Source: Gammaproteobacteria bacterium
Lineage (GTDB): Bacteria > Pseudomonadota > Gammaproteobacteria > JBCCGL01
Assembly (NCBI GenBank): GCA_965277715.1
Contig: OZ255836.1
Coordinates: 3,200,001-3,264,000 of the forward strand
Direction: 5' to 3'
Length of the DNA stretch: 64,000 bases
Shown here: positions 433 to 31,039 of the stretch, piece by piece
How the letters are laid out: every line of letters starts with the position of its first letter
Position numbering within the stretch: position 1 is the stretch's first letter
The notes under the pieces: model-generated
The model's input: the letters and a program-made list of their open reading frames with translations, nothing else
What the model was told of the DNA's origin: nothing
Database searches by the model: none
Program-made: the position numbers and the translations under genes

Positions 433-735
433 TCAAAAAATATAAATAACTTCACTTTCATTGAAGCCAGCTATATCTCCATAGACATCTAATATCCAAT
501 TTTGACCTGGAGTAGTTTCATTAACTTTATAGCTATCCAGCTCTTCTGGGCTCATGGTTGCTCGAACTGTCGGCTCAAACTCTCGAACTTTGATGGAATC
601 AATTCGGACTTGAGAGTCACTCTTAGACTGTAATACTGAACTGCTTGTGATAGTGCAATCATAGCTTCTAACTACAAACTTTCCACTATTTCCTTCGACC
701 TCGCGAATGAGGCCTAACCAAGCTTTATTCGTCAT
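433..735 (-). CDS. Putative cognate immunity protein (CdiI-like), 100 aa, family not recognised
   Basis: Small gene whose ATG (733-735) overlaps the TGA (732-734) of the giant exoprotein (ATGA coupling). This is the canonical immunity-gene position. Confidence 0.75.
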   Translation of the reverse strand: MTNKAWLGLIREVEGNSGKFVVRSYDCTITSSSVLQSKSDSQVRIDSIKVREFEPTVRATMSPEELDSYKVNETTPGQNWILDVYGDIAGFNESEVIYIF

Positions 736-3700: not shown

Positions 3701-6700
3701 ACGACACTTCCGCCTTGCCATGAAATTCCTCGGACTCGGTATCGGTGGTTTCTTTGCCCTCTTTGATCGTCATATCACCACTGGCTGCCAGCTCGATATT
3801 TTCATCCGCCGCCAGGTTACTCCCCTGCACGGTGATATTGCCTTTGTCCTCCTCCCCTGATGTGGCATTCAACTCGATATTATTGGCGTGTAGGTTGCTG
3901 CTAACCACGGTGGTCGTGGTCGTGGTCGTCTCCGCTTTATCGATGGTCGCTTTGGCCAGGGTGATTGATAGCTTGCCGTCGTCGGTTTTTACCAGCTTAT
4001 CCGGGCGGGTCAGGGTTTTGGCCACATCGCCCAGGCTGATGGTGGTCTTGGTGTGTTTCGAGTAAGTCTTTTCTTCGCTCAGGGCATTTTCTATACGGAT
4101 ATCCTGCCCACTGGCGCTCAGTGTGTCGGTGGCGTCGACATCGACACCGCGCAGGGTGATATCTCGCTGGGCGGTAATCGCAATACTCCCACCGCCCAGG
4201 GCCGACGAGACCGCCGTTTTGTTGATGCGCCCCTCCAGGTCTTCGCTCTTGGAATACAGGGCGCCACCGCTGAAAAACCCCGATTTTTTCGTGTGCGATT
4301 CACTGAGTGCCCCGTCATAGCCCGCCTCGATAGTGATATCCCGCTCGCTGGTCAGGGTCAGTTGATCATCGGCGATAACACGCGATCCGGTGATATCAAT
4401 ATCCCGCTGCGTGCTGACCAATTCAACCGTAGCGCCACTGAGCTGCGCGCCGATATTCGTCGAGCTTGCGTTTTTCGTCGTGGTGGTTTTTTTGGAAAAC
4501 GTGCTTTTTTTGGTGGTTTTTATCTCTGTGTAGTGGCTGTCATTAACCGCTTCAATGGCGATATTGCCCGCCCGGATTGCCAGGGCATCGTTAGCCGCAA
4601 CGGTGGAACCGGCTATGCGCGTGGTGTCGGTACTGCGCAGGTCAATCGTGTCCGCTTTAATACTGGAAGCCAGGTTTGTGGTGGATTGCCGCTTGATGTA
4701 ATTTTTGCTATCTCCTCCAAAAAAGTTGGTGTTTTGTACCGTGGTATTAACATCAATCGTATTGGCCGATATTTCAACGGTATTCGCCGTCAGGGTAGAA
4801 CCCTGTACCTGCACGGCTTCGCCTGCGTCCACAGTCAAGCGGTTGCTGGCCTGGATTTGCCCTGCCCGGCCTATCAGGTTTTTCGTGTCTGTTGTTCTGC
4901 CGCTGGAGTAGTTGACGGCTTCAATATAACGCTGGTTGACGACATTCCCCCCGGCGGTCAGGTCGATATCCTTGCCTTTGATCAGGCCGGAGGTATTGAT
5001 AATATCCTGCTCTGCTACCAGGCTCAGGCGGTTATCGGCGGTCAGTCGACCGCCCAGGTTATTAACTCCCTCGTTTGCCGCAATGGCAAGGTTATTGCCC
5101 GCCTGAAAGGTGCCGGTGTTATCCAGTTGATCGACGCCCAGGTCGATATCCCCCCCGGCAATCACCCGGCTGCCTTCTAAGGCATAACGACTGGCATTGG
5201 CGATATACACCTGCGGCACCAGGACTCTTTCGCCCGCGACAATCTGCTCTTCAAACCAGACAATATCCTGGGTCAGCGCGTTGATCTGTGCCTCGGTAAC
5301 AGCGACGCCCAGCACCAGTTGCAGGTCACCCTGGGCGCGCAGGGCATTGTCCATCAGGTATTGGTATTGGGTATTGTCATCAGTGATTTCCTTGTGCAGA
5401 AAACGCCGACCCGTCTGGGCATAGATGCTCTCACGGATCAGTGTTTGCTCGTAGAAGGCATCACCCACACGTTTTTGCTCAACTTCAGGGTCGTAGTCAA
5501 CCTGCTCCAGTAAATAGTTGCTGCTGATGAAATTTGCATACAGGGTGAGTTCTGGGTTGGTTTCGATCAGGAACCCCGATTGTGGGTCCTGGCTGGCGAC
5601 AAACAGACCAAAGTTATCCGCTGGCAAGGTGATGTCTGATACAACCACAGCCGGTTGTGCGGTAGGGTTCAGGTTGATATCGCGGGCCTGGGCATCGTTG
5701 GCATTATTGTCCACCTGGGCGGCGTCTGTCGTTTGTGTGCGGGCATTGACGGCCTGGTTATCGACTGGCGCTACATCGAGTGTCTGTGTGTTGGCTTGCG
5801 CCTGAGTGGCTTCTACCTGGGTAACGTCCGCCACCATTTCTTGGGTTTGGATATCACCATTGTCAATTTGTGTCGTGCCAATGGCCTGTGTATTCGCCTG
5901 CACATGATTGGCTTCTACCGAGCCGTTGTCTGTCATTATCTCGCGGGCATCAATGCCACCATTACCAATTGCCGTATTAGTGATCGCTTGCGCGTTTGCC
6001 TGTACCTGGTCGGCTTCTATCTGACCATTGTTCGCCAGTATCTCGCGGGCATCAATAGCACCATTACCAATCGCCGTATTAGCGATCGCTTGCGCGTTTG
6101 CCTGTACCTGCGTGGCTTCCACCTCACTATTGCCCACCATCATCCCATGGGATTCAATACCCTCATTACCAATTGCCATGTTAGCGATCGCTTGCGCGTT
6201 CGCCTGCACCTGGTCGGCTTCTATCTGGCCATTGCTCGCCAGCATCTCGCGGGACTGAATATCACCATTATCAATATGCGTGGTGTCGATAGTTTGCGCA
6301 TTCGCCTGCACTTCTGTGGCTTCCACCTGGCTGTTGCCCGCCGTCATTTGGCGGGCATCAATAACACCATTCTCTATCTGCGTGGTGCCAATGGTTTGCG
6401 TATCCACCTGCACCTGCGCCGTTTCTACCTGGCTATTGTTCGCCGTCATTTGGCGGGCATCAATAGCGCCATTCTCTATTTGTGTATTGCCAACGGTTTG
6501 CGTCTGGGCCTGTGTCTGCGTGGCCTGTACAGAATCACCGTCCTGGGTAACCGACTGGCGGGCCTGGATATCGTCAACCTGGGTATTATTGATCGATGCG
6601 GTATTGGCCTGAGTCTGCATGGTTTGAATGGTGGCACTGCCCCCGGCGTCTACCTGCTGGGTCTCGGTGGTATCGATAGGCACGTTATCGATGGCCTGGG

Positions 6701-9700
6701 TATTGGCCTGTATTTGCGTGGTTTGGGTTTGCGTACTGGCACCTACTACCGCCTGGCCACCCTGAATGTTACCGTTGCTGAAATTGCCTGCATGGCCGGT
6801 GATATTACCGCCTGCTTGGATGGTTGAACCGATGGTTTGCACAACGTCGACGGTTTTTTGAATATTTTCAGGGTTTCCAAGTGGCTCACAACTATCAGGA
6901 TAGTTGGGTCCATTCCAGCAAACTCCAATTTGTTGGAATGTTGTTGTTACTTCTACTACTTCTACTGTGCTGTTATCCACTACCCGTGATGACAGTGCAA
7001 TATCTCCCCCTGCACTGATCAACGAATATCCATTGGCAATTGTGTCTACATTCAAGTTTATATGCCCCCCCGCGTTAATCTCAGCAGGCGGTGCTATGTC
7101 TATCAGTTTTACTCTATCAACTACGGAACGATTCAATCGGTAAAAACGGATACCAAGGACATAGATTATGGTCGTAGCAGATGAAATTGTGTCTGATATT
7201 CGTTCACCACCTGTAATCGTTTGAGTACCCGGGTTGTAAGTACCTTGCACCGTCGGCGCATCGGTGGTGTTCTGCAACTGCTGAGCGTAAATTGCAATAT
7301 CGCCGTTGTAGGTTTGAATAGCACCCCCGATATTTTTGACGAGACTTGTTTTTCCTCCATTATTGCCTGCCGATATAAGCAAATTATTGTAGGCAAAAAC
7401 AGTACCATTCAGACCATTTGCCAGGGTGTTTTGGATATCAAACACCATATCATTCCCGGCAAATAGCGTCCTGATATTGCTCATATTGACAGCCGTAAAA
7501 GTTAAGTTATTACCCGCATTAAAAAAGCCTTGATTGCCAATAGCAGGCCCCGTTACAAGCAGGTCACCCTGTGCACTAATACGTGATTGGTTAGCAAGCA
7601 CATTGGTGGCGTGCAGTTGGCTGCTGCCTACGCCACCGCTGATGGTGGCGTGGTTAGTTATGTCGTAGGCACTAAGGTGCAACGCCCCACCGCTGGACAG
7701 GGTTTCGTAGTTAGTGAGTGCACCCTGTGTGGTTAAGGTCAGGTCACCGTTGGCGAGCAAATCCGCTCGGTTGGTGATGTAGTCGTTGGCGATAATATGC
7801 AGGTTGCCGTTAGCGCCGATAGCCGAGCCTGCTACATTATTCAGAGCGTCCAGGGTCAGGGTCAGGTCACCGGCGGCGTAGAGGTCTGAGCCGTCGAGGT
7901 TAATGCCGTGGGTGGTCAGAGCCAGACCATTGGCCGAGGCCACTTGGGCGTTGCTGTTATCCAGGTAGTTGCTTTGCAGCCGGGTGTTTTGCTGGCTTTG
8001 GATCAGGCCATTGCTGTTTGTCAGGGTTTGGCTGATGGCAATGTCCAGGTCGTTATTACTAAGCAATCTACCATCCGTGTTATTTAGTGTGTTTGCCTGG
8101 ATATCAACGGCACCCAGGGCCGCGATTTGGGCGTTTTGATTATTGATGTCGCCGCTGGTGATCAGCGACAGGGTGCCATCACTGCTCAGTTGTTGTTGAT
8201 TGGTGATGGTGGCCGCCGTTAATGACAGGGCATTGTTGGCGTGCAGGGTGCCGCTGTTTAAGGCGGTTGATGTGGCGGTGAGGGTGGCATTATCAGCGAT
8301 AAGGGTGTGCTGGTTTGTCAGGGTGTCTGCGGTAACGGTCAGCGATTCATTGGCCTGGATGGTGCCGTTGTTGTTCAGCGCGCCGTCTATCGCCAGCGTG
8401 ATGTCTTCAACCGCCAGCAGATTGGCGTCGTTTGTCAGGGTCAGGGTGTCCGCGTTGATGCCCACCTGGGTGGCGGAGATTTCACCGCCGTTACCAGCGA
8501 GAGTGGTGGCGTCGACCGTCAAGGTATTGCTGGCAGTAATATCACCACTATTGTTCAGGGTTTGGGTGGTGATTTGCTGATTGTTATTGGCGTGCAGTGT
8601 GCCCTGGTTGTTTAGGCGAGTGGTCGCTGTGGTGGTCAGTATATTACCCGCCAGGATATTCTGGCTATTGGTGACGGTATTGGCGTTGAGGGCAATATCG
8701 TGAGTGGCTTGCAGGTTGCCACTGTTATCGATATGCGTGGCACTGAGCTGGGCATCGGTGGCCAGTAGGGTGTTTTGATTCAGCAGCGTCGCCGCGCTGA
8801 CAGCCAGGCTATCGTTGGCCTGGATGGTGCCGTTGTTGGTAAGGGTATTGGCTATATCCAGATTTATGTCTTCCACCGCCAGTAGGTTCGTATTGTTCAG
8901 GGTCAACGCATCGGCAGCAATAGCCACCTGGGTGCCAGATACTTCACCCCCGGTGCTGTTAATACCGGTGGCATTGATATTCAGGGTATTAGTGGCGGTG
9001 ATGTCACCGCTGTTGCTCAAGGCTTGCGTGGTGAGCTGTTGGTTGTTGTTGGCGTGCAGCGCGCCCTGGTTATTCAGGCTGTTGGCCGCGTTGATCGACA
9101 GGCTATTGCTCGCCAGGATGTTGTGGGTGTTGTTAAGCGTATTGGTGTTAAGCGTGGCATCCTGTGCAGCTTGCAAGGTGCCGCTGTTGTCGATAGTGGT
9201 AGCTGTCACTGTGGCATCGGTGGCCGCCAGGGTGGCGCGGTTATCCAGGCTGGCGGTGTTCAATATCAGGGCATTGTCTGCCTGCACAACACCGGCATTG
9301 TTGCGTACCGCACCGCTGTTGGTAATAGCCAGATCGTGGCTGCTGAGGATATTGCCGCTGTTGGTAATTTCCCCCGTCGTCAGGGTGGTGTCGGTGGCCA
9401 GTAGGCTGCGTTGATTGACCAGCACATCAGCATTAATGGCCAAGGCATCGTTGGCTTGTATTGTGCCGTTGTTGTCCAGGGTGTCGCTAACTGTCAGGGT
9501 AAGGTCTTCAACGGCCAGCAAGTTGGTATCTGCCAGGGTCAGGTTATCCGCATTAATGCCGACCTGGGTGGCAGAGATTTCACCCGCAGTACTGTTAAAG
9601 GTAGTAGAGGCGATATTCAGTGCGTTGCTGGCGGTGATATTGCCGCTGTTACTATTCGTCAGTGTCTGCGTGGTCAACTGTTGGTTGTTGTTGGCGTGTA

Positions 9701-15700: not shown

Positions 15701-18700
15701 CCAGGGTGATATCTTCTACCGCCAGTAGGCGGGTGTCTGTCAAAGTTAGGTTATCAACATCAATGCCTACTTGTGTGGCGGACAATTCTCCGCCCTGGCT
15801 ATTCAGGTTTGTCGCTGCAATTGTTAATGCATTGCTGGCGGTAATCGTTTCGCTATTAGTCAACACCCCGGCGGTAATCGTCTGGTTATTGTTCGCGTGT
15901 AGCGTGGCTTGGTTGATGAGTTGATTGCGCGCTGTGATCGTTAAGGTGTTATCCGCCAGGATGTTCTGGTTATTGGTCAGACTATCGCTTATCAGGCTGA
16001 GGTCGTGGGCGGCTTGCACATCACCGCTATTGGTCAGGGTGGTTGCTGTGATCGTGGCATCAGTGGCGGCAAGCGTGGCCTGGTTATCTAGCGTGGCAGT
16101 GTTCAGGGTGAGCGCATTATCCGCCTGTACAGTGCCTGCGTTATTGCGTACAGCGCCGCTGTTGGTGATGGTCAGGTCGTGGCTGCTGAGGATATTGCCG
16201 CTGTTGGTAATAGTATCCGTCGTCAGGGTCGTATCGGTGGCCAGTAGTGTGCGCTGGTTATCCACCGCGCCCGCTGTGACGGTCAGGGTATTGTTGGCCT
16301 GTACCGTGCCATCGTTGTTGAGTGTATCGCTGACATCCAGGGTGATATCTTCAACTGCGAGTAGATTGGTGTCTGTCAGGCTTAGATTATCAACATCAAT
16401 ACCTACTTGTGTGGCGGACAATTCTCCGCCCTGGCTATCCAGGTTTGTCGCTGCAATTGTTAAGGCATTACTGGCGGTAATCGTTTCGCTATTGGTCAAT
16501 ACCCCGGCGGTAATCGTCTGGTTATTGTTCGCGTGCAGCGTGGCTTGGTTGATGAGTTGATTGCGCGCTGTGATCGTTAAGGCGTTATCCGCCAGGATGT
16601 TCTGGTTATTGGTCAGGCTATCGCTTATCAGGCTGAGGTCGTGGGCAGCTTGTATATCACCGCTATTGGTCAGCATCGATGCGGTGATAGTGGCATCAGT
16701 GGCAGCAAGCGTGGCCTGGTTATCCAGGGTGGCAGTGTTCAGCGTAAGCGCATTATCCGCCTGCACAGTGCCTGCATTGTTGCGTACTGTGCTGCTGTTG
16801 GTGATGGTTAAGTCGTGACTACTGAGGATATTGCCGCTGTTGGTAATTTCACTGGTGGTCAGGGTCGTGTCGGTGGCCAGTAGGGTGCGCTGGTTATCCA
16901 CCGTGCCCGCTGTGATTGTCAGGGTATTGTTGGCCTGTACCGTGCCATCGTTGTTGAGTGTATCACTCACATCCAGGGTGATATCTTCAACTGCGAGTAG
17001 ATTGGTGTCTGTCAGGCTTAGGTTATCAACATCAATATTCACTTGCGTGGCGGATAACTCACCCCCTGTGCTGTCGATGCCATTGGCCACAATTTCCAAG
17101 CGACTACTGGCCGTAATGTCATGGCTATTCGTCAGGGTGTCAGTGGTGATTTGTTGGCTGCTATTGGCGTGCAACACACCCTGGTTATTCACGTTATTTG
17201 CCGCAGTGATCGTTAAGGCATTGCCTGACAGGATGTTTTGGTTGTTGACCAGTGTATCTATCACCAGGCTTAGGTCGTGGGTGACCTGTACATCACCGCT
17301 ATTGGTCAGGGTAGCTGCGGTAATCGTTGCATCGGTGGCGGCAAGCGTGGCCTGGTTATCTAGCGTGGCAGTGTTCAGCGTAAGCGCATTATCCGCCTGC
17401 ACAGTGCCTGCATTGTTATGTACTGCACCACTGTTGGTGATGGTCAGATCGTGACTGCTAAGGATATTGCCACTGTTGGTAATAGTATCCGTCGTTAAGG
17501 TCGTGTCTGTGGCCAGTAGGGTGCGCTGGTTATCCACCGCGCCCGCTGTGACGGTCAGGGTATTGTTGGCCTGAACCGTGCCATCGTTGTTGAGTGTGTC
17601 GTTCACATCCAAGGTGATATCTTCAACCGCCAGCAGGCGAGTATCTGTCAAGGTCAGGGTGTCGGTGTCGATCGTCACCTGCGTGGCGGATACTTCGCCA
17701 CCTGTGCTGTCTGCCGTGGCTGCCGTAATCCCCAGGTTATTGCGGGCCGTGATGTCCTGGCTATTGGTTAGAGTCTGCGTGCTGATTGTTTGGTTGTTAT
17801 TGGCGTGCAAAACGCCCTGGTTATTCAGGCTGTTCGCTGCGGTAATCGTCAAGGCATTATCCGCCACGATGCGCTGGCTGTTGTCGATAGTATCGGCGCG
17901 TAGCGTTGCATCATGGGTGGCTTGTATATCACCGCTGTTGGTAATTGCAGTGGCAGTCACCGTGGCATCGGTGGCTGCAAGCGTTGCGCGGTTGTCCAGC
18001 GTAGCCGTATTCAGCGTCAGCGTATTATCCGCCTGCACAGTGCCTGCATTGTTGAGCACGGCGCCGCTGTTGGTGATGGTCAGGTCGTGACTGCTGAGGA
18101 TATTGCCACTGTTACTGACTGCATCGGTGGTGAGTGTGGCATCGGTCGCGAGGAGAGTACCCTGGTTAAGCAGGTTATCGGTGGTCACCGTCAAGGCATT
18201 ATTTGCCTGAACCGTTCCGGCATTGCTGAGTGTATCGCTCACATCCAGGGTGATATCTTCAACCGCCAGTAGGCGAGTATCTGTCAAGGTCAGGGTGTCG
18301 GTGTCGATCGTCACCTGCGTGGCGGATACTTCGCCACCTGTGCTGTCTGCCGTGGCTGCCGTAATCCCCAGGTTATTGCGGGCCGTGATGTCCTGGCTAT
18401 TGGTTAGAGTCTGCGTGCTGATTGTTTGGTTGTTATTGGCGTGCAAAACGCCCTGGTTATTCAGGCTGTTCGCTGCGGTAATCGTCAAGGCATTATCCGC
18501 CACGATGCGCTGGCTGTTGTCGATAGTATCGGCGCGCAGCGTTGCATCATGGGTGGCTTGTATATCACCGCTGTTGGTGATTGCAGTGGCGGTCACCGTG
18601 GCATCGGTGGCCACAAGCGTTGCGCGGTTGTCCAGCGTAGCCGTATTCAGTGTCAGCGCATTATCGGCCTGCACGGTGCCTGCGCTGTTGAGCACGGCGC

Positions 18701-21605
18701 CGCTGTTGATGATGGTCAGGTCGTGACTGCTGAGGATATTGCCACTGTTACTGACTGTATCGGTGGTGAGTGTCGCATCGGTCGCGAGGAGAGTACCCTG
18801 GTTAAGCAGGTTATCGGTGGTCACCGTCAAGGCATTATTTGCCTGAACCGTTCCGGCATTGCTGAGTGTATCGCTCACATCCAGGGTGATATCTTCAACC
18901 GCCAGCAGGCGGGTATCTGTCAAGGTCAGGGTGTCGGTGTTGATCGTCACCTGCGTGGCGGATACTTCGCCACCCGTGCTATCTACCCTGGCTGCCGTAA
19001 TCCCTAGGTTATTGCGGGCCGTGATGTCCTGGCTATTGGTTAGAGTCTGTGTGCTGATTATTTGGTTGTTATTGGCGTGCAAAACGCCCTGGTTATTCAG
19101 GCTGTTCGCTGCGGTAATCGTCAAGGCATTATCCGCCACGATGCGCTGGCTGTTGTCGATAGTATCGGCGCGCAGCGTTGCATCATGGGTGGCTTGTATA
19201 TCACCGCTGTTGGTGATTGCAGTGGCAGTCACCGTGGCATCGGTGGCCACAAGCGTTGCGCGGTTGTCCAGCGTAGCCGTATTCAGTGTCAGCGCATTAT
19301 CGGCCTGCACGGTGCCTGCGCTGTTGAGCACGGCACCGCTGTTGATGATGGTCAGGTCGTGACTGCTGAGGATATTGCCACTGTTACTGACTGTATCGGT
19401 GGTGAGTGTCGCATCGGTCGCGAGGAGAGTGCCCTGGTTAAGCAGGGTATCAGTGGTCACCGTCAAGGCATTATTTGCCTGAACCGTTCCGGCATTGCTG
19501 AGTGTATCGCTCACATCCAGGGTGATATCTTCAACCGCCAGCAGGCGGGTATCTGTCAAGGTCAGGGTGTCGGTGTCGATCGTCACCTGCGTGGCGGATA
19601 CTTCGCCACCCGTGCTATCTACCCTGGCTGCCGTAATCCCCAGGTTATTGCGGGCCGTGATGTTCTGGCTATTGGTTAGAGTCTGTGTGCTGATTATTTG
19701 GTTGTTATTGGCGTGCAATACGCCCTGGTTATTCAGGCTGTTCGCTGCGGTAATCGTCAAGGCATTATCCGCCACGATGCGCTGGCTGTTGTCGATAGTA
19801 TCGGCGCGCAGCGTTGCATCATGGGTGGCTTGTATATCACCACTGTTGGTAATTGCAGTGGCAGTCACCGTGGCATCGGTGGCCACAAGCGTTGCGCGGT
19901 TGTCCAGCGTAGCCGTATTCAGCGTCAGCGCATTATCGGCCTGCACGGTGCCTGCGCTGTTGAGCACGGCACCGCTGTTGGTGATAGTCAGGTCGTTACT
20001 GCTGAGAATACGGCCACTGTTGGTAATATCATTTGTGGTGAGTGTAGTGTCTGTGGCCAACAGGGCGCGTTGATTTTCCACTGTGCCTGCGGTGACGGCC
20101 AGGGTATTACTGGCTTGAATGGTTCCGGCGTTATTCAGTGTGCCACTCACATCCAGGGTAATATCTTCAACTGCCAATAGATTGGTGTCTGTCAACGTCA
20201 GTGTGTCGGTATCAACACTGACCTGCGTGGCGGATACTTCGCCACCCGTGCTGCCTACCGTGGCCGCTGTAATCTCCAGGTTATTGCGGGCCGTGATGTT
20301 CTGGCTATTACTCAGGGCTTGGGTGGTGATAACCTGATTGTTATTGGCGTGCAAGGTGCCCTGGTTGTCAACGCTATTGCCCGCCGTTATACGCAGGGTA
20401 TTACCTGCCAAAACACGTTGGCTATTGCGCAATGTATTGGTAGTAATGCTGGCATTGCGTGTCGCTTTGATTTCACCCTGGTTATCGGTGGACTGGCTGG
20501 TAACACGCAAATCACCGTTTGTATTTTGACTGTTATCTTCATTTAAACCCGCCGTGAGACGCGCCTTGTTAACCAGTTCTCCCGCATTAATTTCAAGCGT
20601 ATTTTTTGCGGCCACAATGCCACCATTAACAGCTACCTGATTGTCAGCACTCAGCACAACGTCGGCTTGGCTGTACACGGTGTTATTCGATGCAATATCC
20701 TGTGTACTATTTACGGTTATTTGCTGCTGCGCCGTCACCTTTTGCAGCGAAATTGTGCCGTCGTTGGTAATTGTAATGCCCTCCATTGAAGCCAAAACCT
20801 CTGGGGGTAGGTTGACACCCAAGCCTTGGTCTGTACCCACCAGGGAAATTCTATTGGCATACATGCCACCCAGTGCAGAGGCGTCCAGTAAAAGCCTGCC
20901 CTGGTCTGCTGAATTTTCGGATGAGGTGATGGTCTTGCTTTGGTAGTCAATCGCATTTTTGCCCAACTTAATATCAAGATTTTTAGCATGGAGTTGGGCA
21001 TTAATTGATAAGTAGTGGGTGTAAATTTGTGTGCTGTCCTGACCTTGTGTATTTAGCCCCGCACCTTGTATGGCAATATCACCGCCAGCAACATTCAAAG
21101 AGCGTAAAGTACCGTTATCCACAGTAGGACGGCCTGTGGTTAAAGTTACATTTCCAGAGTTGATAAATCCGCCACCATTAATGCTGATGCCATTGGGGTT
21201 GGCGATGACGATATCTGACCGCTGCCCAGCCACTTCGGTATAACCATTTAACAACGAGCGGTTTGTGCTACTCACTTCATTGAGTATGACCGTAGCCGTA
21301 TTGTTGAGGTTTTGGTTACCGGCAATATACCCACCAAGCTGCGTATTTACCTCGGTAGTATTGGCATTATTTAAAATTAAACCCTGACTATTGACGTTGT
21401 AGTGGTTGAATTTATTGTGCGACAAACCCGATGCGCTGGGGTTGGCAATATTCACAACTGGCACACCGTTTCTGGCGCTATCGAGGGTAGTATTGGTCGA
21501 GCCATCTACCTCTAGTGGTTCTGCATAAGTTAATACCGGTGATAACGCCAGGTAGTAAGAAAAGTAAACGATGATAAATTTTTTAAATACGGGTAGTCTT
21601 TTCAT
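732..21605 (-). CDS. cdiA: Giant filamentous-haemagglutinin / CdiA-type two-partner secretion toxin (~6,957 aa)
   Basis: Sec signal MKRLPVFKKFII...VLTYA; TPS domain (GLSHNKF, ILNEV, ANPNGI); FHA-1 repeats; YP-like block (FLIETNP...KRVGDAFYEQ...IVW...VLVPQVY); FHA-2 repeats; variable C-terminus followed by a small gene. The ATG at 21605 is preferred because GGAG lies upstream and it overlaps the cdiB stop (ATGA). Confidence 0.92.
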   Translation of the reverse strand: MKRLPVFKKFIIVYFSYYLALSPVLTYAEPLEVDGSTNTTLDSARNGVPVVNIANPSASGLSHNKFNHYNVNSQGLILNNANTTEVNTQLGGYIAGNQNLNNTATVILNEVSSTNRSLLNGYTEVAGQRSDIVIANPNGISINGGGFINSGNVTLTTGRPTVDNGTLRSLNVAGGDIAIQGAGLNTQGQDSTQIYTHYLSINAQLHAKNLDIKLGKNAIDYQSKTITSSENSADQGRLLLDASALGGMYANRISLVGTDQGLGVNLPPEVLASMEGITITNDGTISLQKVTAQQQITVNSTQDIASNNTVYSQADVVLSADNQVAVNGGIVAAKNTLEINAGELVNKARLTAGLNEDNSQNTNGDLRVTSQSTDNQGEIKATRNASITTNTLRNSQRVLAGNTLRITAGNSVDNQGTLHANNNQVITTQALSNSQNITARNNLEITAATVGSTGGEVSATQVSVDTDTLTLTDTNLLAVEDITLDVSGTLNNAGTIQASNTLAVTAGTVENQRALLATDTTLTTNDITNSGRILSSNDLTITNSGAVLNSAGTVQADNALTLNTATLDNRATLVATDATVTATAITNSGDIQATHDATLRADTIDNSQRIVADNALTITAANSLNNQGVLHANNNQIISTQTLTNSQNITARNNLGITAARVDSTGGEVSATQVTIDTDTLTLTDTRLLAVEDITLDVSDTLSNAGTVQANNALTVTTDTLLNQGTLLATDATLTTDTVSNSGNILSSHDLTIINSGAVLNSAGTVQADNALTLNTATLDNRATLVATDATVTATAITNSGDIQATHDATLRADTIDNSQRIVADNALTITAANSLNNQGVLHANNNQIISTQTLTNSQDITARNNLGITAARVDSTGGEVSATQVTINTDTLTLTDTRLLAVEDITLDVSDTLSNAGTVQANNALTVTTDNLLNQGTLLATDATLTTDTVSNSGNILSSHDLTIINSGAVLNSAGTVQADNALTLNTATLDNRATLVATDATVTATAITNSGDIQATHDATLRADTIDNSQRIVADNALTITAANSLNNQGVLHANNNQTISTQTLTNSQDITARNNLGITAATADSTGGEVSATQVTIDTDTLTLTDTRLLAVEDITLDVSDTLSNAGTVQANNALTVTTDNLLNQGTLLATDATLTTDAVSNSGNILSSHDLTITNSGAVLNNAGTVQADNTLTLNTATLDNRATLAATDATVTATAITNSGDIQATHDATLRADTIDNSQRIVADNALTITAANSLNNQGVLHANNNQTISTQTLTNSQDITARNNLGITAATADSTGGEVSATQVTIDTDTLTLTDTRLLAVEDITLDVNDTLNNDGTVQANNTLTVTAGAVDNQRTLLATDTTLTTDTITNSGNILSSHDLTITNSGAVHNNAGTVQADNALTLNTATLDNQATLAATDATITAATLTNSGDVQVTHDLSLVIDTLVNNQNILSGNALTITAANNVNNQGVLHANSSQQITTDTLTNSHDITASSRLEIVANGIDSTGGELSATQVNIDVDNLSLTDTNLLAVEDITLDVSDTLNNDGTVQANNTLTITAGTVDNQRTLLATDTTLTTSEITNSGNILSSHDLTITNSSTVRNNAGTVQADNALTLNTATLDNQATLAATDATITASMLTNSGDIQAAHDLSLISDSLTNNQNILADNALTITARNQLINQATLHANNNQTITAGVLTNSETITASNALTIAATNLDSQGGELSATQVGIDVDNLSLTDTNLLAVEDITLDVSDTLNNDGTVQANNTLTVTAGAVDNQRTLLATDTTLTTDTITNSGNILSSHDLTITNSGAVRNNAGTVQADNALTLNTATLDNQATLAATDATITATTLTNSGDVQAAHDLSLISDSLTNNQNILADNTLTITARNQLINQATLHANNNQTITAGVLTNSETITASNALTIAATNLNSQGGELSATQVGIDVDNLTLTDTRLLAVEDITLDVSDTLNNDGTVQANNTLTVTAGAVDNQRTLLATDTTLTTDTITNSGNILSSHDLSITNSGAVRNNAGTVQADNALTLNTATLDNQATLAATDATITASTLTNSGDIQAAHDLSLISDSLTNNQNILADNTLTITARNQLINQATLHANNNQTITAGVLTNSETITASNALTIAATNLDSQGGELSATQVNIDVDNLTLTDTNLLAVEDITLDVSDTLNNDGTVQANNTLTITAGAVDNQRTLLATDTTLTTDTITNSGNILSSHDLTITNSGAVHNNAGTVQADNALTLNTATLDNQATLAATDATITASMLTNSGDIQAAHDLSLISDSLTNKQNILADNTLTITARNQLINQATLHANNNQTITAGVLTNSETITASNALTIAAANLNSQGGELSATQVGIDVDNLTLTDTNLLAVEDITLDVSDTLNNDGTVQANNTLTVTAGAVDNQRTLLATDTTLTTDTITNSGNILSSHDLTITNSGAVHNNAGTVQADNALTLNTATLDNQATLAATDATITASMLTNSGDIQAAHDLSLITDNLTNNQNILADNALTITARNQLINQATLHANNNQTITAGVLTNSETITASNTLTIAAANLNSQGGELSATQVGIDVDNLTLTDTNLLAVEDITLDVSDTLNNDGTVQANNTLTVTAGTVENQRTLLATDTTLTTDTITNSGNILSSHDLTITNSGAVRNNAGTVQADNALTLNSSILDNQATLAATDATITATTLANSGDIQAAHDLSLISDSLTNNQNILADNALTITARNQLINQATLHANNNQTITAGVLTNSETITASNALTIAATNLDSQGGELSATQVHIDVDNLSLTDTNLLAVEDITLDVSDTLNNDGTVQANNTLTVTAGAVNNQRTLLATDTTLTTDTITNSGNILSSHDLTITNSGAVRNNAGTVQADNALTLNTSILDNQATLAATDATITATTLTNSGDVQASRNITLNATDVRNREHILAGNTLAITASNSLDNQGALHANNNQTITTQILTNSEDITASNTLSITATDLHSTAGELSATAVAIDTATLALTDSGLLAVDDITLDVSDTLNNDGTVQANNTLTVTAGTLVNQRTLLAADTTLTTDNISNSGNILSSHDLTITNSGAVRNNTGTVQADNALTLTTDTLDNRATLAATDATVTATTIDNSGDLQAAHDVTLTTATLTNNQSILAGNALTITATDSLDNQGALHANNRQQLTTHTLSNSQDITASNTLGITATDISSTAGELSAVDVNIDTRTLTLTDTNLLAVDDITLNASDTLTNNGTIQANDTLAVTAGALVNQRTLLATDTTLTTGGIDNSGSILNSRDLTITNSGAVLNRAGSVQAGNALTVNTQTLDNRTTLTATDTTVTATTLSNSGDIQGSHNLTLSADNISNQHNILAGNVLAITAIDSLNNQGTLHANNTQQITAQALSNSHNITASNALDITATTLNSSGGELSAVQVDIDTGTLRVVDSQLLAVQDLTLTASDSLDNNGVIQANNALNITAGALVNRRTLLATDTTLTTGSITNSGNILGSHDLHITNSGMVRNNAGALQANDTLTITTDGLENQDTLLATNITLDAATLNNNGNLQAENNATLNTVDLSNDQNILAGNTLAITASNRLNNQGTLHANNNQQLTVQTLNNSGGNNSGNITASNALDITVTSLNSTAGEISATQVGINADNLTLADTNLLAVKDLTLTVSDTLTNNATIQANDTLTVSADNLVNQRTLLATDTTLTTGEITNSGNILSSHDLTITNSGAVRNNAGAVQADNALILNTASLDNRATLAATDTTVMATTIDNSGTLQAAQDATLNTSTLSNTHNILAGNSLSINAANSLNNQGALHANNNQQLTTQALSNSGDITATNALNITAAGISSTGGEVSATQVAIDADALTLANTHLLAVEDIDLDIANTLTNNGTIQANDTLTVSTDNLVNQRTLLATDTTLSSTTLTNSGDIQATHDISLTTDSLVNQQTILANNTLAITASNSLNNQGTLHANNNQQLTTQTLTNSNSGNITASNALNIASTTFNSTAGEISATQVGINADNLTLADTNLLAVEDLTLTVSDTLDNNGTIQANDALAINADVLVNQRSLLATDTTLTTGEITNSGNILSSHDLAITNSGAVRNNAGVVQADNALILNTASLDNRATLAATDATVTATTIDNSGTLQAAQDATLNTNTLNNTHNILASNSLSINAANSLNNQGALHANNNQQLTTQALSNSGDITATNTLNINATGINSTGGEVSGTQVAIAADALTLNNTNLLAVEDINLDIANTLTNNGTIQANDSLAVSAATLLNQNTLLATDAQLSATHIDNSGNLQATHDIALNANTVTNSQNILAGNILTTTATTRLNNQGTLHANNNQQITTQTLNNSGDITASNTLTVDATTLAGNGGEISATQVGINADTLTLTNDANLLAVEDITLAIDGALNNNGTIQANESLTVTADTLTNQHTLIADNATLTATSTALNSGTLHANNALSLTAATITNQQQLSSDGTLSLITSGDINNQNAQIAALGAVDIQANTLNNTDGRLLSNNDLDIAISQTLTNSNGLIQSQQNTRLQSNYLDNSNAQVASANGLALTTHGINLDGSDLYAAGDLTLTLDALNNVAGSAIGANGNLHIIANDYITNRADLLANGDLTLTTQGALTNYETLSSGGALHLSAYDITNHATISGGVGSSQLHATNVLANQSRISAQGDLLVTGPAIGNQGFFNAGNNLTFTAVNMSNIRTLFAGNDMVFDIQNTLANGLNGTVFAYNNLLISAGNNGGKTSLVKNIGGAIQTYNGDIAIYAQQLQNTTDAPTVQGTYNPGTQTITGGERISDTISSATTIIYVLGIRFYRLNRSVVDRVKLIDIAPPAEINAGGHINLNVDTIANGYSLISAGGDIALSSRVVDNSTVEVVEVTTTFQQIGVCWNGPNYPDSCEPLGNPENIQKTVDVVQTIGSTIQAGGNITGHAGNFSNGNIQGGQAVVGASTQTQTTQIQANTQAIDNVPIDTTETQQVDAGGSATIQTMQTQANTASINNTQVDDIQARQSVTQDGDSVQATQTQAQTQTVGNTQIENGAIDARQMTANNSQVETAQVQVDTQTIGTTQIENGVIDARQMTAGNSQVEATEVQANAQTIDTTHIDNGDIQSREMLASNGQIEADQVQANAQAIANMAIGNEGIESHGMMVGNSEVEATQVQANAQAIANTAIGNGAIDAREILANNGQIEADQVQANAQAITNTAIGNGGIDAREIMTDNGSVEANHVQANTQAIGTTQIDNGDIQTQEMVADVTQVEATQAQANTQTLDVAPVDNQAVNARTQTTDAAQVDNNANDAQARDINLNPTAQPAVVVSDITLPADNFGLFVASQDPQSGFLIETNPELTLYANFISSNYLLEQVDYDPEVEQKRVGDAFYEQTLIRESIYAQTGRRFLHKEITDDNTQYQYLMDNALRAQGDLQLVLGVAVTEAQINALTQDIVWFEEQIVAGERVLVPQVYIANASRYALEGSRVIAGGDIDLGVDQLDNTGTFQAGNNLAIAANEGVNNLGGRLTADNRLSLVAEQDIINTSGLIKGKDIDLTAGGNVVNQRYIEAVNYSSGRTTDTKNLIGRAGQIQASNRLTVDAGEAVQVQGSTLTANTVEISANTIDVNTTVQNTNFFGGDSKNYIKRQSTTNLASSIKADTIDLRSTDTTRIAGSTVAANDALAIRAGNIAIEAVNDSHYTEIKTTKKSTFSKKTTTTKNASSTNIGAQLSGATVELVSTQRDIDITGSRVIADDQLTLTSERDITIEAGYDGALSESHTKKSGFFSGGALYSKSEDLEGRINKTAVSSALGGGSIAITAQRDITLRGVDVDATDTLSASGQDIRIENALSEEKTYSKHTKTTISLGDVAKTLTRPDKLVKTDDGKLSITLAKATIDKAETTTTTTTVVSSNLHANNIELNATSGEEDKGNITVQGSNLAADENIELAASGDMTIKEGKETTDTESEEFHGKAEVSFVVKNEYAQIVPVVQAAKKAKDQLSQAKDSYDQYKDDLSRQQQHLAQLKTDLQNNRLGIEQTDIDELQDYIDDLASDDAFYQANIALAAANLATKTTAVAAQIAKAAASSGTYGFNAGLEIDLDVLEEQLSEAQQRSVASTLSAGNTITINANNTATVQGSHLQAGEGITIDSQDLNVLASQDLSTRETSTEHRNVNIAIDLYGGSGGGVNLSSDSASSSRREITQTNASLLANNITINTRDTTQIKGADVAAGDTLSLNTQTLHVASVQNSTKDRSQSQGASVGFSSSGINSAGLSNARARSVIKNTVDTQLLGETVDITVAEATTLRGATIAAVDEDGNDNQQLTLVTNTLEVGSLNNTVEARSTSVSVGVGQTVSLDYSNDNQHSKTKTLGTVGEGEVVLGDAENSNTRLLNRDIDDNEVAIYDIESHQGLSGSLDTRLLTERGRTAIAEDILKSEMIVNTIELIATTERVGVEDFFSETDKAHRTYEAVKTEIASTPALANALQNPNLNPAEKEQLLNQVTSSVMAELGYENYENRLVDTDIPGKSGDQVRGHYSDETGDTYINDRYIADTETLITTAGHETSHAIDRQSEEVDLDNRQDNESYADNYGENLAEYTEFALEVNGYEGGLASENNRVGTETSERVAENNAEFAALDKDEGDNLVISGPAAIATAVALYVTGTGEGDPVEGLEKIGAGEDVLSRGLALASEEGIKLSYEAFPEETQAVLDEIVRAGEVIGAGVEYLDDITGEVVSAQWNALDEATQNQLKGTGAIISIVLPGTAAQQLSRVNNIDLPDIPLNPGTRAGNTDAEAGGFSELDQDLEGIVDETADGNYLFRGTTDGYEGSSGTQQAGATPTSTDPAIATCYANSAACAAETPGDGVVHIFDANNPNITTTNNPYGLRQDFEVLLDNISPNQAVNLAETTITQNQATQILRDMGVGIPNQISGPGQLNDTLLGITNGGTSAPLSSTQIDEFVRRAKELNQ
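5694..6710 (-). repeat. Intragenic array of ~10 x 33-34 aa (102 bp) repeats, each with 17-aa halves
   Basis: Example unit QANAQAIANTAIGNGAIDAREILANNGQIEADQV. The DNA motif TCGCGGGCATCAAT occurs at 5941 and 6043, 102 bp apart. Confidence 0.85.
8250..20400 (-). repeat. Intragenic tandem array of ~20 x 636-bp (212-aa, 11-rung) FHA-1 units
   Basis: The LHAN motif recurs about every 636 bp. Antisense shadow ORFs start at 13381, 14017, 14653, 15289, 15925 and 16561, and at 18223, 18859 and 19495, each 636 bp apart. Confidence 0.95.
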
Positions 21606-28338: not shown

Positions 28339-28340
28339 AT

Positions 28341-29432: not shown

Positions 29433-29451
29433 CGGTTCAATCGGGGTCGGC

Positions 29452-30966: not shown

Positions 30967-31039
30967 GTTGTATGATGGGGCAAAACCTGTGGCAGATGAT
31001 TCTGCCATATTCCTAACCGTTTATGTCGACTGTCCGCTA

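What the first reader, a model, noticed from the sequence alone, without database searches (positions are those of the whole stretch)
5694..20400. Two repeat arrays in one protein that appear length-matched: a 'return cable' scaled to the filament
Seen: each 212-aa FHA-1 unit parses into 11 rungs of 18-21 aa, and there are ~20 units. Between the putative receptor-binding domain and the YP-like domain lie ~10 x 34-aa repeats (5694-6710). Each splits into two 17-aa halves (QANAQAIANTAIGNGAI / DAREILANNGQIEADQV), giving ~20 halves. Established: in the CdiA hairpin model the chain runs back from the filament tip to the producing cell. Inference from standard geometry: 11 rungs x 0.48 nm = ~5.3 nm and 17 extended residues x 0.33 nm = ~5.6 nm, so one half-repeat could span one filament unit, with totals near 105-115 nm. 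This suggests a co-evolving molecular ruler.
Basis: partly seen in the sequence, partly recalled or inferred. Interest (0 to 1): 0.85.

Follow-up and report, generated by a model that had tools for sequence, protein, structure and literature searches.

The report
Filament-matched return linker in giant CdiA
A giant bacterial contact-weapon protein has a repeat-built linker whose length tracks the length of its filament, and the same rule holds in hundreds of relatives, which fits the idea that the chain must run back along the filament to the cell.

Summary
Window 732-21617 (-) encodes a 6961-aa CdiA-like TpsA exoprotein next to a TpsB transporter. Its FHA-1 region holds about 20 units of 212 aa, each about 11 rungs. 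Ten 34-aa repeats lie between the RBD-like segment and the conserved YP/secretion-arrest domain.

Across three homologue sets, linker length rises with FHA-1 length. The slope is 0.078 aa per aa, or 1.50 aa per rung (r=0.89, 175 unique points). Independent contrasts and a held-out set agree. The RBD part and the C-terminal half do not scale.

- None of 200 linkers is too short to span its own FHA-1 filament.
- In 11 of 17 groups with an FHA-1 super-repeat, the linker's best period is 0.072-0.088 of the FHA-1 period (about 1.5 expected by chance). The window protein fits at 2:1.
- Close Janthinobacterium relatives differ by one 678-aa FHA-1 unit together with one 54-59-aa linker block.

The best reading is a nearly extended return leg of the known CdiA hair-clip, kept length-matched by selection. 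The 17-aa half-repeat register is only weakly supported. No folding tool was available, so the extended conformation is inferred. I found no such scaling law in print.

The parts
21602..23272 (-). TpsB/CdiB-like outer-membrane transporter gene. Its end overlaps the start of the exoprotein gene by 16 nt.
   Evidence: Pfam ShlB (1.1e-61), POTRA_2 and POTRA_3. ORF coordinates.
732..21617 (-). CdiA-like TpsA exoprotein gene, 6961 aa (P0001).
   Evidence: ORF and translation. Pfam TPS, Fil_haemagg and Fil_haemagg_2. TIGR01731 and TIGR01901.
20718..21518 (-). TPS secretion domain, aa 34-300.
   Evidence: Pfam PF05860, 6.3e-43. Family HMM match aa 34-300.
7227..20717 (-). FHA-1 beta-helical filament region, aa 301-4797 (4497 aa). 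This is about 233 rungs, or about 112 nm at 0.48 nm per rung.
   Evidence: Boundaries from the TPS and FHA-1-cap HMMs. Arithmetic. Rise per rung from a passage of PMC7662968 that cites Ruhe 2018.
8250..20513 (-). Array of 212-aa FHA-1 super-repeat units: 17 near-full and 3 partial, 11 rungs each. DNA identity is 96-98% and 90-94% within two young blocks.
6762..7226 (-). RBD-like segment, aa 4798-4952. It ends in the conserved 'STIQAGGNITG' rung.
   Evidence: The motif HMM is found in 200 of 280 homologues. The length of this part does not scale with FHA-1 (r=0.13).
5598..6761 (-). Linker, the proposed return leg: aa 4953-5340, 389 aa. This is about 128 nm at 0.33 nm per residue.
   Evidence: The family regression predicts 382 aa.
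5712..6731 (-). Ten 34-aa tandem repeats within the linker (8 good, 2 degenerate), aa 4963-5302.
   Evidence: No Pfam family reaches its cut-off. No similarity to FHA-1 rungs.
4929..5597 (-). Conserved YP / secretion-arrest-like domain, aa 5341-5563 ('LPADNFGLF...FLIETNP').
   Evidence: Family HMM. tblastn gives 33% identity over 98% of the query to an annotated E. coli plasmid cdiA (H19).
2856..3308 (-). FHA-2 repeats (best Pfam stretch, aa 6104-6254).
   Evidence: PF13332, 1.1e-24, four stretches.
735..2717 (-). C-terminal region of unknown family, the presumed pretoxin and toxin, aa 6301-6961. HExxH at aa 6556 and 'LYVT' at aa 6652.
   Evidence: No Pfam hit reaches its cut-off. No PDB sequence relative. 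Motif positions.
433..735 (-). Small downstream ORF (100 aa) in the position of an immunity gene. It is unassigned.
   Evidence: No family in NCBIfam or Pfam.

Best explanation
The gene encodes a giant CdiA-type two-partner-secretion effector. In the published hair-clip model, the FHA-1 beta-helix projects from the producing cell with the receptor-binding domain at its tip. The chain then runs back to the CdiB pore, so the C-terminal half stays in the periplasm until a receptor is bound.

I propose that the 389-aa linker of this protein, most of it ten 34-aa repeats, is that return leg. It spans the roughly 112-118 nm filament in a nearly fully extended state.

Linker length appears to be under selection to match filament length, at about 1.5 linker residues per 0.48-nm rung. 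When FHA-1 grows by duplication of a super-repeat unit, the linker grows by a block about 0.08 times as long. Over repeated cycles this produces two tandem arrays with matched periods and copy numbers.

Shown here:
- the domain architecture;
- the scaling law and its controls;
- the period and copy-number matching;
- coupled indels between close relatives.

Taken from the literature: the hair-clip topology, the extended YP region, and 4.8 A per roughly 20-aa rung.

Inferred:
- that the linker is extended in this protein;
- that matching positions the arrest domain at the pore at the moment the tip domain finishes folding. On this view the linker is the last 'feeder' segment spanning pore to tip.
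For: (1) Scaling, set A. Of 241 proteins, 201 passed the boundary HMMs; the 176 without a second cap-like match give 126 unique points. The spacer (FHA-1 cap to YP anchor) against FHA-1 length has slope 0.0759+/-0.0034, intercept 202, r=0.895.

(2) Held-out set B. Of 126 new representatives of 50%-identity clusters, 90 passed. Slope 0.0875+/-0.0068, r=0.81.

(3) Independent contrasts.
- 279 contrasts: slope 0.066, r=0.57, p=3e-25.
- 227 contrasts with branch sum >0.02: slope 0.0875, r=0.83.
- C-terminal length as control: r about 0.03.
- With set C added, 368 contrasts: slope 0.065, r=0.61.
- Inside set C alone, 74 contrasts: slope 0.063, r=0.81.
- Sister pairs that differ by at least 150 aa of FHA-1: 21 of 23 change in the same direction, p=6.6e-5.

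(4) The spacer was split at the conserved IQAGG rung, which is found in 200 of 280 proteins.
- Linker: slope 0.0777+/-0.0030, intercept 33, r=0.89.
- RBD part: slope 0.008, r=0.13.

(5) Lower bound.
- 0 of 200 linkers are shorter than their FHA-1 filament, taking 3.3 A per linker residue and 0.24 A per FHA-1 residue.
- For FHA-1 of at least 1000 aa (n=95) the reach-to-filament ratio has median 1.19 and minimum 1.13.
- The 5th to 75th percentiles are 1.14-1.30.
- Quantile regressions at 5, 10 and 50% all give slope 0.078.

(6) Two annotated or well-studied systems fall on the line.
- An E. coli plasmid cdiA: FHA-1 1100 aa, spacer 304 aa, predicted 285-302.
- A. baumannii: FHA-1 1758 aa, spacer 340 aa, predicted 335-360.

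(7) Period matching.
- 304 proteins were scanned; 94 have an FHA-1 super-repeat, and these fall into 17 groups.
- In 11 of 17 groups the best linker period divided by the FHA-1 period lies in 0.072-0.088. It is 13 of 17 if a 2:1 ratio is allowed.
- The permutation mean is 1.47 and the maximum is 7 in 20,000 permutations.
- Examples: 141/11, 412/33, 500/41, 678/57. The window protein is 212/34, which is 2 x 0.080.
- Copy numbers are about 1:1: 3.6 against 3.0-3.7; 5.4-7.0 against 4.9-5.7; 4.1 against 3.6-4.4. In the window protein they are 19.3 against 10.

(8) Coupled indels in Janthinobacterium.
- P0390 against P0379 (YP 96% identical): +674 aa of FHA-1 with one linker block of about 56 aa.
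- P0376, P0368 and P0373: FHA-1 of 3526, 4200 and 4877 aa with spacers of 438, 497 and 551 aa.

(9) Linker sequences.
- They differ between lineages in sequence, composition and even insertion site.
- They are enriched in Q, N, S, T, G, A and P (0.62) and poor in W, F, Y and C (0.044, against 0.095 in the RBD part).

(10) Literature passages.
- 'U-shape hair clip' (PMC7690452).
- 'proline-rich extended region' (bioRxiv 10.64898/2026.09.30.755834).
- 4.8 A per roughly 20 aa (PMC7662968).
Against: The 34-aa unit has a regular Ile every about 5 residues (my own reading of the unit; offset 5 is the top non-multiple offset, 0.157) and could fold.

Naive regressions that keep mis-assigned FHA-1 caps show nothing.
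-, 'all': slope 0.0175, r=0.05. Three proteins with cap scores below 20 cause this.
-, 'cap>0': r=-0.14.

The pooled set-C regression is weaker (slope 0.0475, r=0.62), because clades differ in RBD size.

In 80 of 280 proteins the IQAGG rung was not found, so only the whole spacer could be used.

Four of 17 super-repeat groups show no period match, even allowing 2:1. These are the 38-member Xanthomonas 259-aa group, the 310-aa group of P0034 and P0328, P0250 and P0348. The ratio window was chosen after seeing sets A and B. Among the five groups represented by set-C proteins, 4 matched at 1:1 and 1 at 2:1.

In the window protein the two arrays differ in apparent age.
- The linker repeats are 50-84% identical in DNA.
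- The youngest FHA-1 units are 96-98% identical.
- The arrays therefore did not expand synchronously, unless gene conversion homogenises the long units.
- There is no sign of a 424-aa duplication step that would explain the 2:1 ratio.

If the TPS domain is counted as filament, the reach ratio at 3.3 A per residue has median 1.05 and 5th percentile 0.93. That is an almost taut chain. This is physically demanding unless the chain is docked on the filament or other segments contribute to the return path.

Deleting P1567-N1820 of E. coli CdiA did not abolish CDI on solid media (passage of PMC13625785 citing Ruhe 2018).

Filament length has been measured only for E. coli and is not known for these proteins.
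Confidence: 0.78

Rival explanations
1. The 34-aa repeats, and linkers in general, fold into their own structure. This could be a thin solenoid, a stalk or a decorated tip that belongs to the receptor-binding end. On this view the repeats are not an extended return path.
For: The repeat unit has regularly spaced Ile/Val and two Gly/Asn turns. No fold prediction could be run to exclude this. A permissive iterated HMM once linked the repeat to the IQAGG rung.
Against: - The HMM link was circular. An HMM built only from 8 clean copies does not hit the IQAGG rung or any FHA-1 rung (all scores negative), and hhalign gives probability 0.1%.
- A folded stalk gives no reason for a family-wide slope of 1.5 aa per rung, a hard lower bound (0 of 200 below) or period matching.
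- Of 145 linkers of at least 120 aa, 140 show no strong internal periodicity and their composition is low-complexity.
Confidence: 0.08
2. The correlation is non-adaptive. Lineages or genes prone to tandem duplication expand everything, or big proteins simply have bigger parts.
For: Both arrays are tandem repeats in the longest proteins. Raw C-terminal length correlates weakly with FHA-1 length (r=0.235).
Against: - After phylogenetic correction the C-terminal half shows r=0.02-0.04. The RBD part shows r=0.13.
- Only 5 of 145 long linkers are strongly periodic, yet all follow the line.
- The slope equals the geometric prediction and the spread is narrow (5th to 75th percentile of the ratio 1.14-1.30).
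- Period ratios cluster at 0.072-0.088.
Confidence: 0.04
3. The linker is scaled to the filament for a step after arrest. It might act as a tether or entropic spring that carries FHA-2 and the toxin from the pore to the target cell at the filament tip. Alternatively it might be a strap bound along the beta-helix that stabilises very long filaments.
For: The same scaling data apply. The near-taut ratio of 1.05 including TPS would suit a docked strap or a loaded spring. Period matching would follow naturally if each linker unit contacts one FHA-1 unit.
Against: The data here do not distinguish this from the return-leg reading, and it is partly compatible with it. Most linkers are non-periodic although they accompany FHA-1 regions without super-repeats, so specific unit-to-unit contacts cannot be general. 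The co-fold could not be run.
Confidence: 0.1

Closest known systems
E. coli CdiA (EC93 type): hair-clip, secretion-arrested topology (Ruhe et al. 2018, seen only through citing papers)
   Same: The order of parts is the same: TPS, FHA-1, RBD, YP/arrest domain, FHA-2 and a C-terminal region, with an adjacent TpsB. The YP domain is homologous (33% identity over 98% of a 240-aa query to an annotated E. coli cdiA). An E. coli plasmid CdiA lies on the same regression line.
   Different: - FHA-1 is about four times longer (4497 against 1100 aa).
- The return leg is built of ten 34-aa repeats that are Pro-poor (1.3% Pro). The E. coli region is described as Tyr/Pro-rich.
- There is no VENN motif or PF04829 hit.
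- Toxin and immunity functions are unassigned.
Bordetella FhaB / FHA
   Same: It is a TpsA with an FHA-1 shaft, an RBD-like tip built as excursions from the beta-helix, and an FHA-2-like domain. It is displayed as surface filaments (passages of bioRxiv 10.1101/2025.06.17.660209).
   Different: FhaB delivers a microtubule-binding domain to host cells. It was not in my homologue sets, so its linker was not measured here.
Molecular rulers and tape-measure proteins: phage tail tape measure, injectisome and flagellar hook rulers YscP/FliK, nebulin (recalled from general knowledge; no call)
   Same: The length of an extended or elongated polypeptide corresponds linearly to the length of a filamentous structure. 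Insertions and deletions change both together.
   Different: Here ruler and filament are two segments of one chain. The linker probably does not set filament length but has to match it. The matching is seen in evolution as coupled duplications and not as an assembly-time measurement.

Membership tests
CdiA-type TpsA effector (contact-dependent inhibition) | Adjacent TpsB/CdiB Omp85-family transporter gene | tested here: met
   Window 21602-23272 (-): Pfam ShlB 1.1e-61, POTRA_2 and POTRA_3.
CdiA-type TpsA effector (contact-dependent inhibition) | N-terminal TPS secretion domain followed by FHA-1 (PF05594-type) repeats | tested here: met
   PF05860 6.3e-43 and PF05594 2.4e-10. TIGR01731 1.5e-26.
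CdiA-type TpsA effector (contact-dependent inhibition) | Receptor-binding domain between FHA-1 and the YP domain | tested here: inconclusive
   A 155-aa segment sits at the homologous position and ends in the conserved IQAGG rung. Receptor binding cannot be tested with these tools.
CdiA-type TpsA effector (contact-dependent inhibition) | Conserved YP / secretion-arrest domain | tested here: met
   Homology to 384 plasmid records, including an annotated E. coli cdiA (33% identity over 98% of the query). Family HMM score 298. Arrest activity itself was not tested.
CdiA-type TpsA effector (contact-dependent inhibition) | FHA-2 (PF13332) region | tested here: met
   PF13332 1.1e-24, four stretches.
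CdiA-type TpsA effector (contact-dependent inhibition) | Pretoxin domain ending in VENN or an equivalent motif (PF04829) | tested here: not met
   No PF04829 hit and no VENN. 'LYVT' occurs once at aa 6652. It is one of the P. aeruginosa pretoxin motifs listed in PMC9086364 (passage). A 4-letter match can be chance.
CdiA-type TpsA effector (contact-dependent inhibition) | Polymorphic C-terminal toxin with a cognate immunity gene downstream | tested here: inconclusive
   The C-terminal 661 aa have no Pfam family above cut-off and no PDB relative. A 100-aa ORF follows, with no family.
Length-matched return leg (the rule proposed here) | Linker length of about 33 + 0.078 x FHA-1 length, never shorter than the filament | tested here: met
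   The window protein has 389 aa observed against 382 predicted. 0 of 200 proteins fall below the bound.

The most novel reading that the evidence does not exclude
The return leg is not a loose tether. It lies docked along the FHA-1 beta-helix as an almost fully stretched strand, in register with the helix, so that each linker repeat covers one FHA-1 super-repeat unit (two units in this protein). It would act as a built-in tape measure. The arrest domain would reach the CdiB pore exactly when the tip domain folds. Filaments could then be lengthened or shortened in evolution only by paired modules, one FHA-1 unit plus one linker unit 0.08 times as long. That would be a general modular growth rule for type Vb filaments, and it would allow filament length to be read from sequence.
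Probability: 0.25. Interest if true: 0.92.

Novelty: new variant of a known kind. Interest (0 to 1): 0.85.

Why it matters
The hair-clip, secretion-arrested state of CdiA rests mainly on work with one E. coli protein. A family-wide rule gives independent comparative support for that topology in distant lineages, from Xanthomonas and Pseudomonas to Janthinobacterium and uncultured marine bacteria. The rule has four parts:
- 1.5 linker residues per rung;
- no linker that falls short of its filament;
- matched repeat periods;
- coupled indels in close relatives.

It also says something new about mechanism. The return leg must be close to fully extended, and its length is tuned to within one repeat unit. 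In the 140-aa/11-aa cases that is about 3-4 nm.

This makes the open question of how secretion arrest is positioned directly testable, by orthogonal changes of FHA-1 and linker length.

Practically, the rule lets filament reach be predicted from sequence. It also gives a check on assemblies of these highly repetitive genes, and it explains why low-complexity or repeat segments sit at this position.

I found no statement of such scaling in the searchable library. Ruhe et al. 2018 itself and all supplements could not be read, so prior mention there cannot be excluded.

Tried and rejected
1. An iterated, permissive HMM suggested that the 34-aa repeat derives from the IQAGG rung. This was rejected as circular. 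A clean 8-copy HMM and hhalign find no link to that rung or to FHA-1 rungs.

2. Pfam on the linker alone gave only a sub-threshold NADase_transloc hit (24 bits against a cut-off of 27). I treat it as chance.

3. Defining the FHA-1 end by the last BLAST HSP gave many outliers with low bit scores. It was replaced by profile HMMs.

4. Regressions that keep proteins with cap scores below 20-60 are destroyed by a few mis-assigned caps. These proteins were dropped and are named in the report.

5. I looked for a 424-aa duplication step in the window's FHA-1 array to explain the 2:1 ratio. There is none: lag-1 identity exceeds lag-2 identity.

6. Annotation of the C-terminal toxin found nothing in Pfam, NCBIfam or PDB sequences.

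7. Organism: no genome is held. A ResB-like neighbour is 67% identical to one Pseudomonadota MAG and 42-54% identical in the other 71 loci (Methylophaga, Competibacteraceae and other gammaproteobacterial MAGs). The source is probably an uncultured gammaproteobacterium.

8. Folding and co-folding were not available.

9. Ruhe 2018 is not held. Supplements are closed and I did not ask for any.
Full report
WHAT IS THERE

Window 732-21617 (- strand) is one ORF of 6961 aa.
- It starts with a TPS secretion domain (PF05860, 6.3e-43).
- It carries FHA-1 type repeats (PF05594; TIGR01731, 1.5e-26).
- It has FHA-2 repeats (PF13332, 1.1e-24) near aa 6104-6254.
- The gene immediately upstream (21602-23272, -) is a ShlB/FhaC/HecB-type TpsB with two POTRA domains. 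It overlaps the start of the big gene by 16 nt.
- A 100-aa ORF of no known family follows.

This is a CdiB/CdiA-like two-partner secretion locus. The C-terminal 661 aa match no Pfam family above cut-off and no PDB sequence. There is no VENN motif. 'LYVT' occurs at aa 6652 and HExxH at aa 6556.

No genome is held for the window. A neighbouring ResB-like gene is 67% identical to one Pseudomonadota MAG. In the other 71 loci it is 42-54% identical; these are Methylophaga, Competibacteraceae and other gammaproteobacterial MAGs.

CHECK OF THE OBSERVATION

FHA-1 array:
- Identity at offset 212 is 0.69.
- A unit HMM finds 17 near-full and 3 partial units over aa 369-4456.
- Secondary offset peaks at 19, 39, 58, 77 and 96 give a 19.3-aa rung, so 11 rungs per unit.

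34-aa array:
- Offset-34 identity is 0.447 against 0.101 in shuffles, z=21.7.
- An HMM built from eight clean copies recovers those eight plus two degenerate copies in register, aa 4963-5302, window 5712-6731.

The array lies between an RBD-like segment and the conserved domain 'LPADNFGLF...FLIETNP'.
- The RBD-like segment (aa 4798-4952) ends in a conserved 'STIQAGGNITG' rung.
- tblastn links the conserved domain to 384 plasmid records. One is a gene annotated cdiA in E. coli, at 33% identity over 98% of the query.

WHAT THE LITERATURE SAYS (passages only)

- FHA-1 forms a filament of about 33 nm with the RBD at the tip. [quoted passage not shown]
- The shape is described as a 'U-shape hair clip' whose second leg is probably the YP domain (PMC7690452).
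- Each roughly 20-aa rung adds 4.8 A (PMC7662968).
- FHA-1 filaments are predicted to span about 15-100 nm between species (PMC8510554).

The primary paper, Ruhe et al. 2018, is not held.

I collected homologues with the YP region as query.
- Set A: 240 proteins from the 90%-clustered collection, 120 of near length and 120 shorter.
- Set B: 126 further representatives of 50%-identity clusters.
- Set C: 109 further long proteins found with the YP region of P0067.

Boundaries were set with three profile HMMs built from set A: TPS end, the conserved C-terminal cap of FHA-1, and YP start. An error in the shared cap boundary would create a negative correlation, not a positive one.

Set A:
- 201 of 241 proteins passed. 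Dropped: 28 without TPS, 9 without a cap end, 3 with a partial TPS.
- With all 201 the fit is destroyed (slope 0.0175, r=0.05, Spearman 0.78). Three proteins with cap scores of 9.5-14.6 are placed about 2770 aa from YP (P0046, P0048, P0068).
- Restricting to the 176 proteins with no second cap-like match after the chosen cap (25 set aside, these three among them) leaves 126 unique points. Spacer against FHA-1 then gives slope 0.0759+/-0.0034, intercept 202, r=0.895.

Set B, not used to build the HMMs:
- 90 of 126 passed; 36 lacked TPS.
- Slope 0.0875+/-0.0068, intercept 206, r=0.81.

Set C:
- 96 of 109 passed.
- Pooled, with cap score above 60 (72 unique points), the slope is only 0.0475+/-0.0072 and r=0.62. 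With no cap filter r=-0.14.
- The pooled slope is low because clades differ in RBD size. Stenotrophomonas spacers are roughly 100-150 aa longer at a given FHA-1 length.

PHYLOGENETIC CONTROL

I built a FastTree tree from the TPS and YP domains.
- Sets A and B, 279 independent contrasts: slope 0.066+/-0.006, r=0.57, p=3e-25.
- The 227 contrasts with branch sum above 0.02: slope 0.0875, r=0.83.
- C-terminal length (YP to end) as control: r=0.03-0.04.
- All three sets, 368 contrasts: slope 0.065, r=0.61. With branch sum above 0.02, 293 contrasts: slope 0.0766, r=0.79.
- Inside set C alone, 74 contrasts: slope 0.063+/-0.005, r=0.81. The C-terminal control gives r=-0.07 to 0.03.
- Of 88 sister pairs, 23 differ by at least 150 aa of FHA-1. 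In 21 of these 23 the spacer changes in the same direction, p=6.6e-5.

WHICH PART SCALES

A small HMM for the conserved IQAGG rung was found in 200 of 280 proteins. It splits the spacer into two parts.
- The RBD part has a median of about 177 aa, slope 0.008 and r=0.13.
- The linker has slope 0.0777+/-0.0030, intercept 33 and r=0.89 (175 unique points).
- Restricted to FHA-1 of at least 1000 or at least 2000 aa, the linker slope is 0.085 and 0.083.
- 0.0777 x 19.27 gives 1.50 linker residues per rung.

Quantile regressions at 5, 10 and 50% all give slope 0.078 with intercepts of 9-18 aa.

No linker is too short. At 3.3 A per linker residue and 0.24 A per FHA-1 residue, 0 of 200 fall below a reach ratio of 1.
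- For FHA-1 of at least 1000 aa (n=95) the ratio has median 1.19 and minimum 1.13.
- The 5th to 75th percentiles are 1.14-1.30.
- Counting a 270-aa TPS domain as filament, the median is 1.05 and the 5th percentile is 0.93.

The window protein sits on the line, with 389 aa observed and 382 predicted. Its FHA-1 is about 112 nm and its linker about 128 nm at 3.3 A per residue.

Two other systems also fit.
- An annotated E. coli plasmid CdiA: FHA-1 1100 aa, spacer 304 aa, predicted 285-302.
- An A. baumannii homologue: FHA-1 1758 aa, spacer 340 aa, predicted 335-360.
- A B. gladioli protein had no confident cap.

NATURE OF THE LINKERS

Linkers from different clades are not alignable and differ in composition.
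- They are Q/T/N-rich in relatives of the window protein.
- They are A/G/S/V-rich in Janthinobacterium.
- They are P/Q/S/A-rich in Pseudomonas.
- In one Pseudomonas clade the extra length lies between 'LPxGxNGLF' and 'YLIETNP'. That is a different insertion site.

Pooled, the linkers are 62% Q, N, S, T, G, A and P. They contain 4.4% W, F, Y and C, against 9.5% in the RBD part, and 7.4% Pro against 2.5%.

Only 5 of 145 linkers of at least 120 aa show strong internal periodicity. These include the three proteins with the longest FHA-1, with periods of 34, 41 and 57 aa.

TWO ARRAYS, ONE RATIO

Where both FHA-1 and the linker are tandemly repeated, the periods correspond.

| Protein | FHA-1 period (aa) | Linker period (aa) | Ratio |
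|---|---|---|---|
| P0134 | 140 | 11 | 0.0786 |
| P0151 | 141 | 11 | 0.078 |
| P0361 | 412 | 33 | 0.080 |
| P0007 | 500 | 41 | 0.082 |
| P0067 | 678 | 57 | 0.084 |
| Window protein | 212 | 34 | 0.160 (2 x 0.080) |

Copy numbers are similar: 3.6 against 3.0-3.7; 5.4-7.0 against 4.9-5.7; 4.1 against 3.6-4.4. In the window protein they are 19.3 against 10.

A formal test covered all three sets.
- 304 proteins with FHA-1 of at least 500 aa were scanned. 94 have a super-repeat (offset identity at least 0.25).
- These collapse to 17 groups, defined by period within 5% and patristic distance below 1.0.
- Each group is represented by the member with the strongest linker periodicity. That choice is blind to the ratio.
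- In 11 of 17 groups the best linker period lies at 0.072-0.088 of the FHA-1 period. It is 13 of 17 if 2:1 is allowed.
- Permuting linker periods among groups gives a mean of 1.47 and at most 7 matches in 20,000 trials. A uniform null expects 1.14.

The ratio window was chosen after sets A and B had been seen. Of the five groups represented by set-C proteins, four match at 1:1 (309/23, 442/33, 769/61, 844/64) and one at 2:1 (191/28).

The groups that do not match are the 38-member Xanthomonas 259-aa group, the 310-aa group of P0034 and P0328, P0250 and P0348.

COUPLED CHANGE BETWEEN CLOSE RELATIVES

In Janthinobacterium, proteins with about 2, 3 and 4 copies of the 678-aa unit form a series.
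- FHA-1 of about 3516-3526 aa goes with spacers of 438-445 aa. One outlier, P0401, has 496 aa.
- FHA-1 of about 4190-4201 aa goes with spacers of 492-511 aa.
- FHA-1 of about 4870-4877 aa goes with spacers of 542-559 aa.

Two sub-lineages show block changes directly.
- P0390 and P0379 are 96% identical in YP. Their linkers differ by a single block of about 56 aa.
- P0376, P0368 and P0373 are 89-92% identical in YP. They differ by successive blocks.

HOW IT PROBABLY WORKS

If the N-terminus stays at the pore while rungs stack at the distal end, the unfolded chain feeding the tip must always span the current filament. When the tip domain has folded, the segment left spanning tip to pore is the linker. 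The residues then sitting in CdiB are those about 1.5 per rung further on.

Matching would place the arrest domain at the pore at that moment. A shorter linker would drag YP and FHA-2 out. A much longer one would leave slack. This step is my inference.

The near-unit ratio implies a chain close to full extension. That is physically hard for a free coil and suggests docking along the shaft. I could not test this, because the fold and co-fold tools were off.

Selection on total length, with a tolerance below one unit, is enough to explain period matching. A compensating tandem duplication of the right size would be reused by unequal crossing-over.

POINTS AGAINST, OR STILL OPEN

- In the window protein the linker units are 50-84% identical in DNA, while the youngest FHA-1 units are 96-98% identical. 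Expansion was therefore not synchronous, unless gene conversion homogenises the long units.
- The 2:1 ratio has no visible 424-aa duplication step.
- The 34-aa unit has regularly spaced hydrophobic residues and may have structure.
- E. coli CdiA lacking P1567-N1820 still inhibits on solid media (PMC13625785 passage).
- Filament lengths of these proteins have not been measured.

NOVELTY

The locus is a new, very large member of a known family, and the hair-clip with an extended return region is published. The following appear to be new:
- the quantitative scaling law;
- the hard lower bound;
- the matched repeat periods;
- the coupled indels.

Searches for such statements found none.

Noticed in passing
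window 735-2717 (-), aa 6301-6961: The C-terminal region has no Pfam family above cut-off and no PDB relative. It contains an HExxH motif at aa 6556. 'LYVT' occurs at aa 6652, about 310 aa before the end. LYVT is one of the P. aeruginosa pretoxin motifs listed in PMC9086364. The region may be a new toxin type with a metallopeptidase-like pretoxin part.
   Followed up: partly
window 23632-24861 (-): A Fic/DOC-family protein gene (PF02661, 1.9e-13) lies directly upstream of the tpsB gene on the same strand. Whether it belongs to the locus is unknown.
   Followed up: no
window 8250-20513 (-): The FHA-1 units form two young blocks in DNA identity: units 1-3 at 96-98% and units 6-11 at 90-94%. Flanking units are older, at 64-80%. 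This indicates at least two recent amplification or gene-conversion episodes. Repeats this similar could be miscounted in an assembly.
   Followed up: partly
P0231, P0003, P0034 (Pseudomonas clade), spacer regions: In this clade the variable extra length lies between the 'LPxGxNGLF' motif and 'YLIETNP'. In the window protein it lies upstream of 'LPxxxxGLF'. The insertion site of the length-compensating sequence therefore differs between lineages.
   Followed up: partly
P0198 (2252 aa): Two TPS-domain matches occur in one protein, at aa 45-319 and 681-945. This could be a tandem TPS domain or a fusion or mis-join.
   Followed up: no
window 27127-31008 (-) and 36919-40252 (+): Neighbouring housekeeping genes include glycolate-oxidase-like FAD and Fe-S subunits and a ResB/CcsA cytochrome c biogenesis pair. 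The ResB relative is at most 67% identical to any species-representative genome, so the organism is poorly sampled.
   Followed up: partly
P0054 (Aeromonas veronii homologue), linker: The linker has a 28-aa tandem repeat (z=15) but FHA-1 has no detectable super-repeat. This is an exception to the paired-array pattern, although the protein still lies on the length regression.
   Followed up: no
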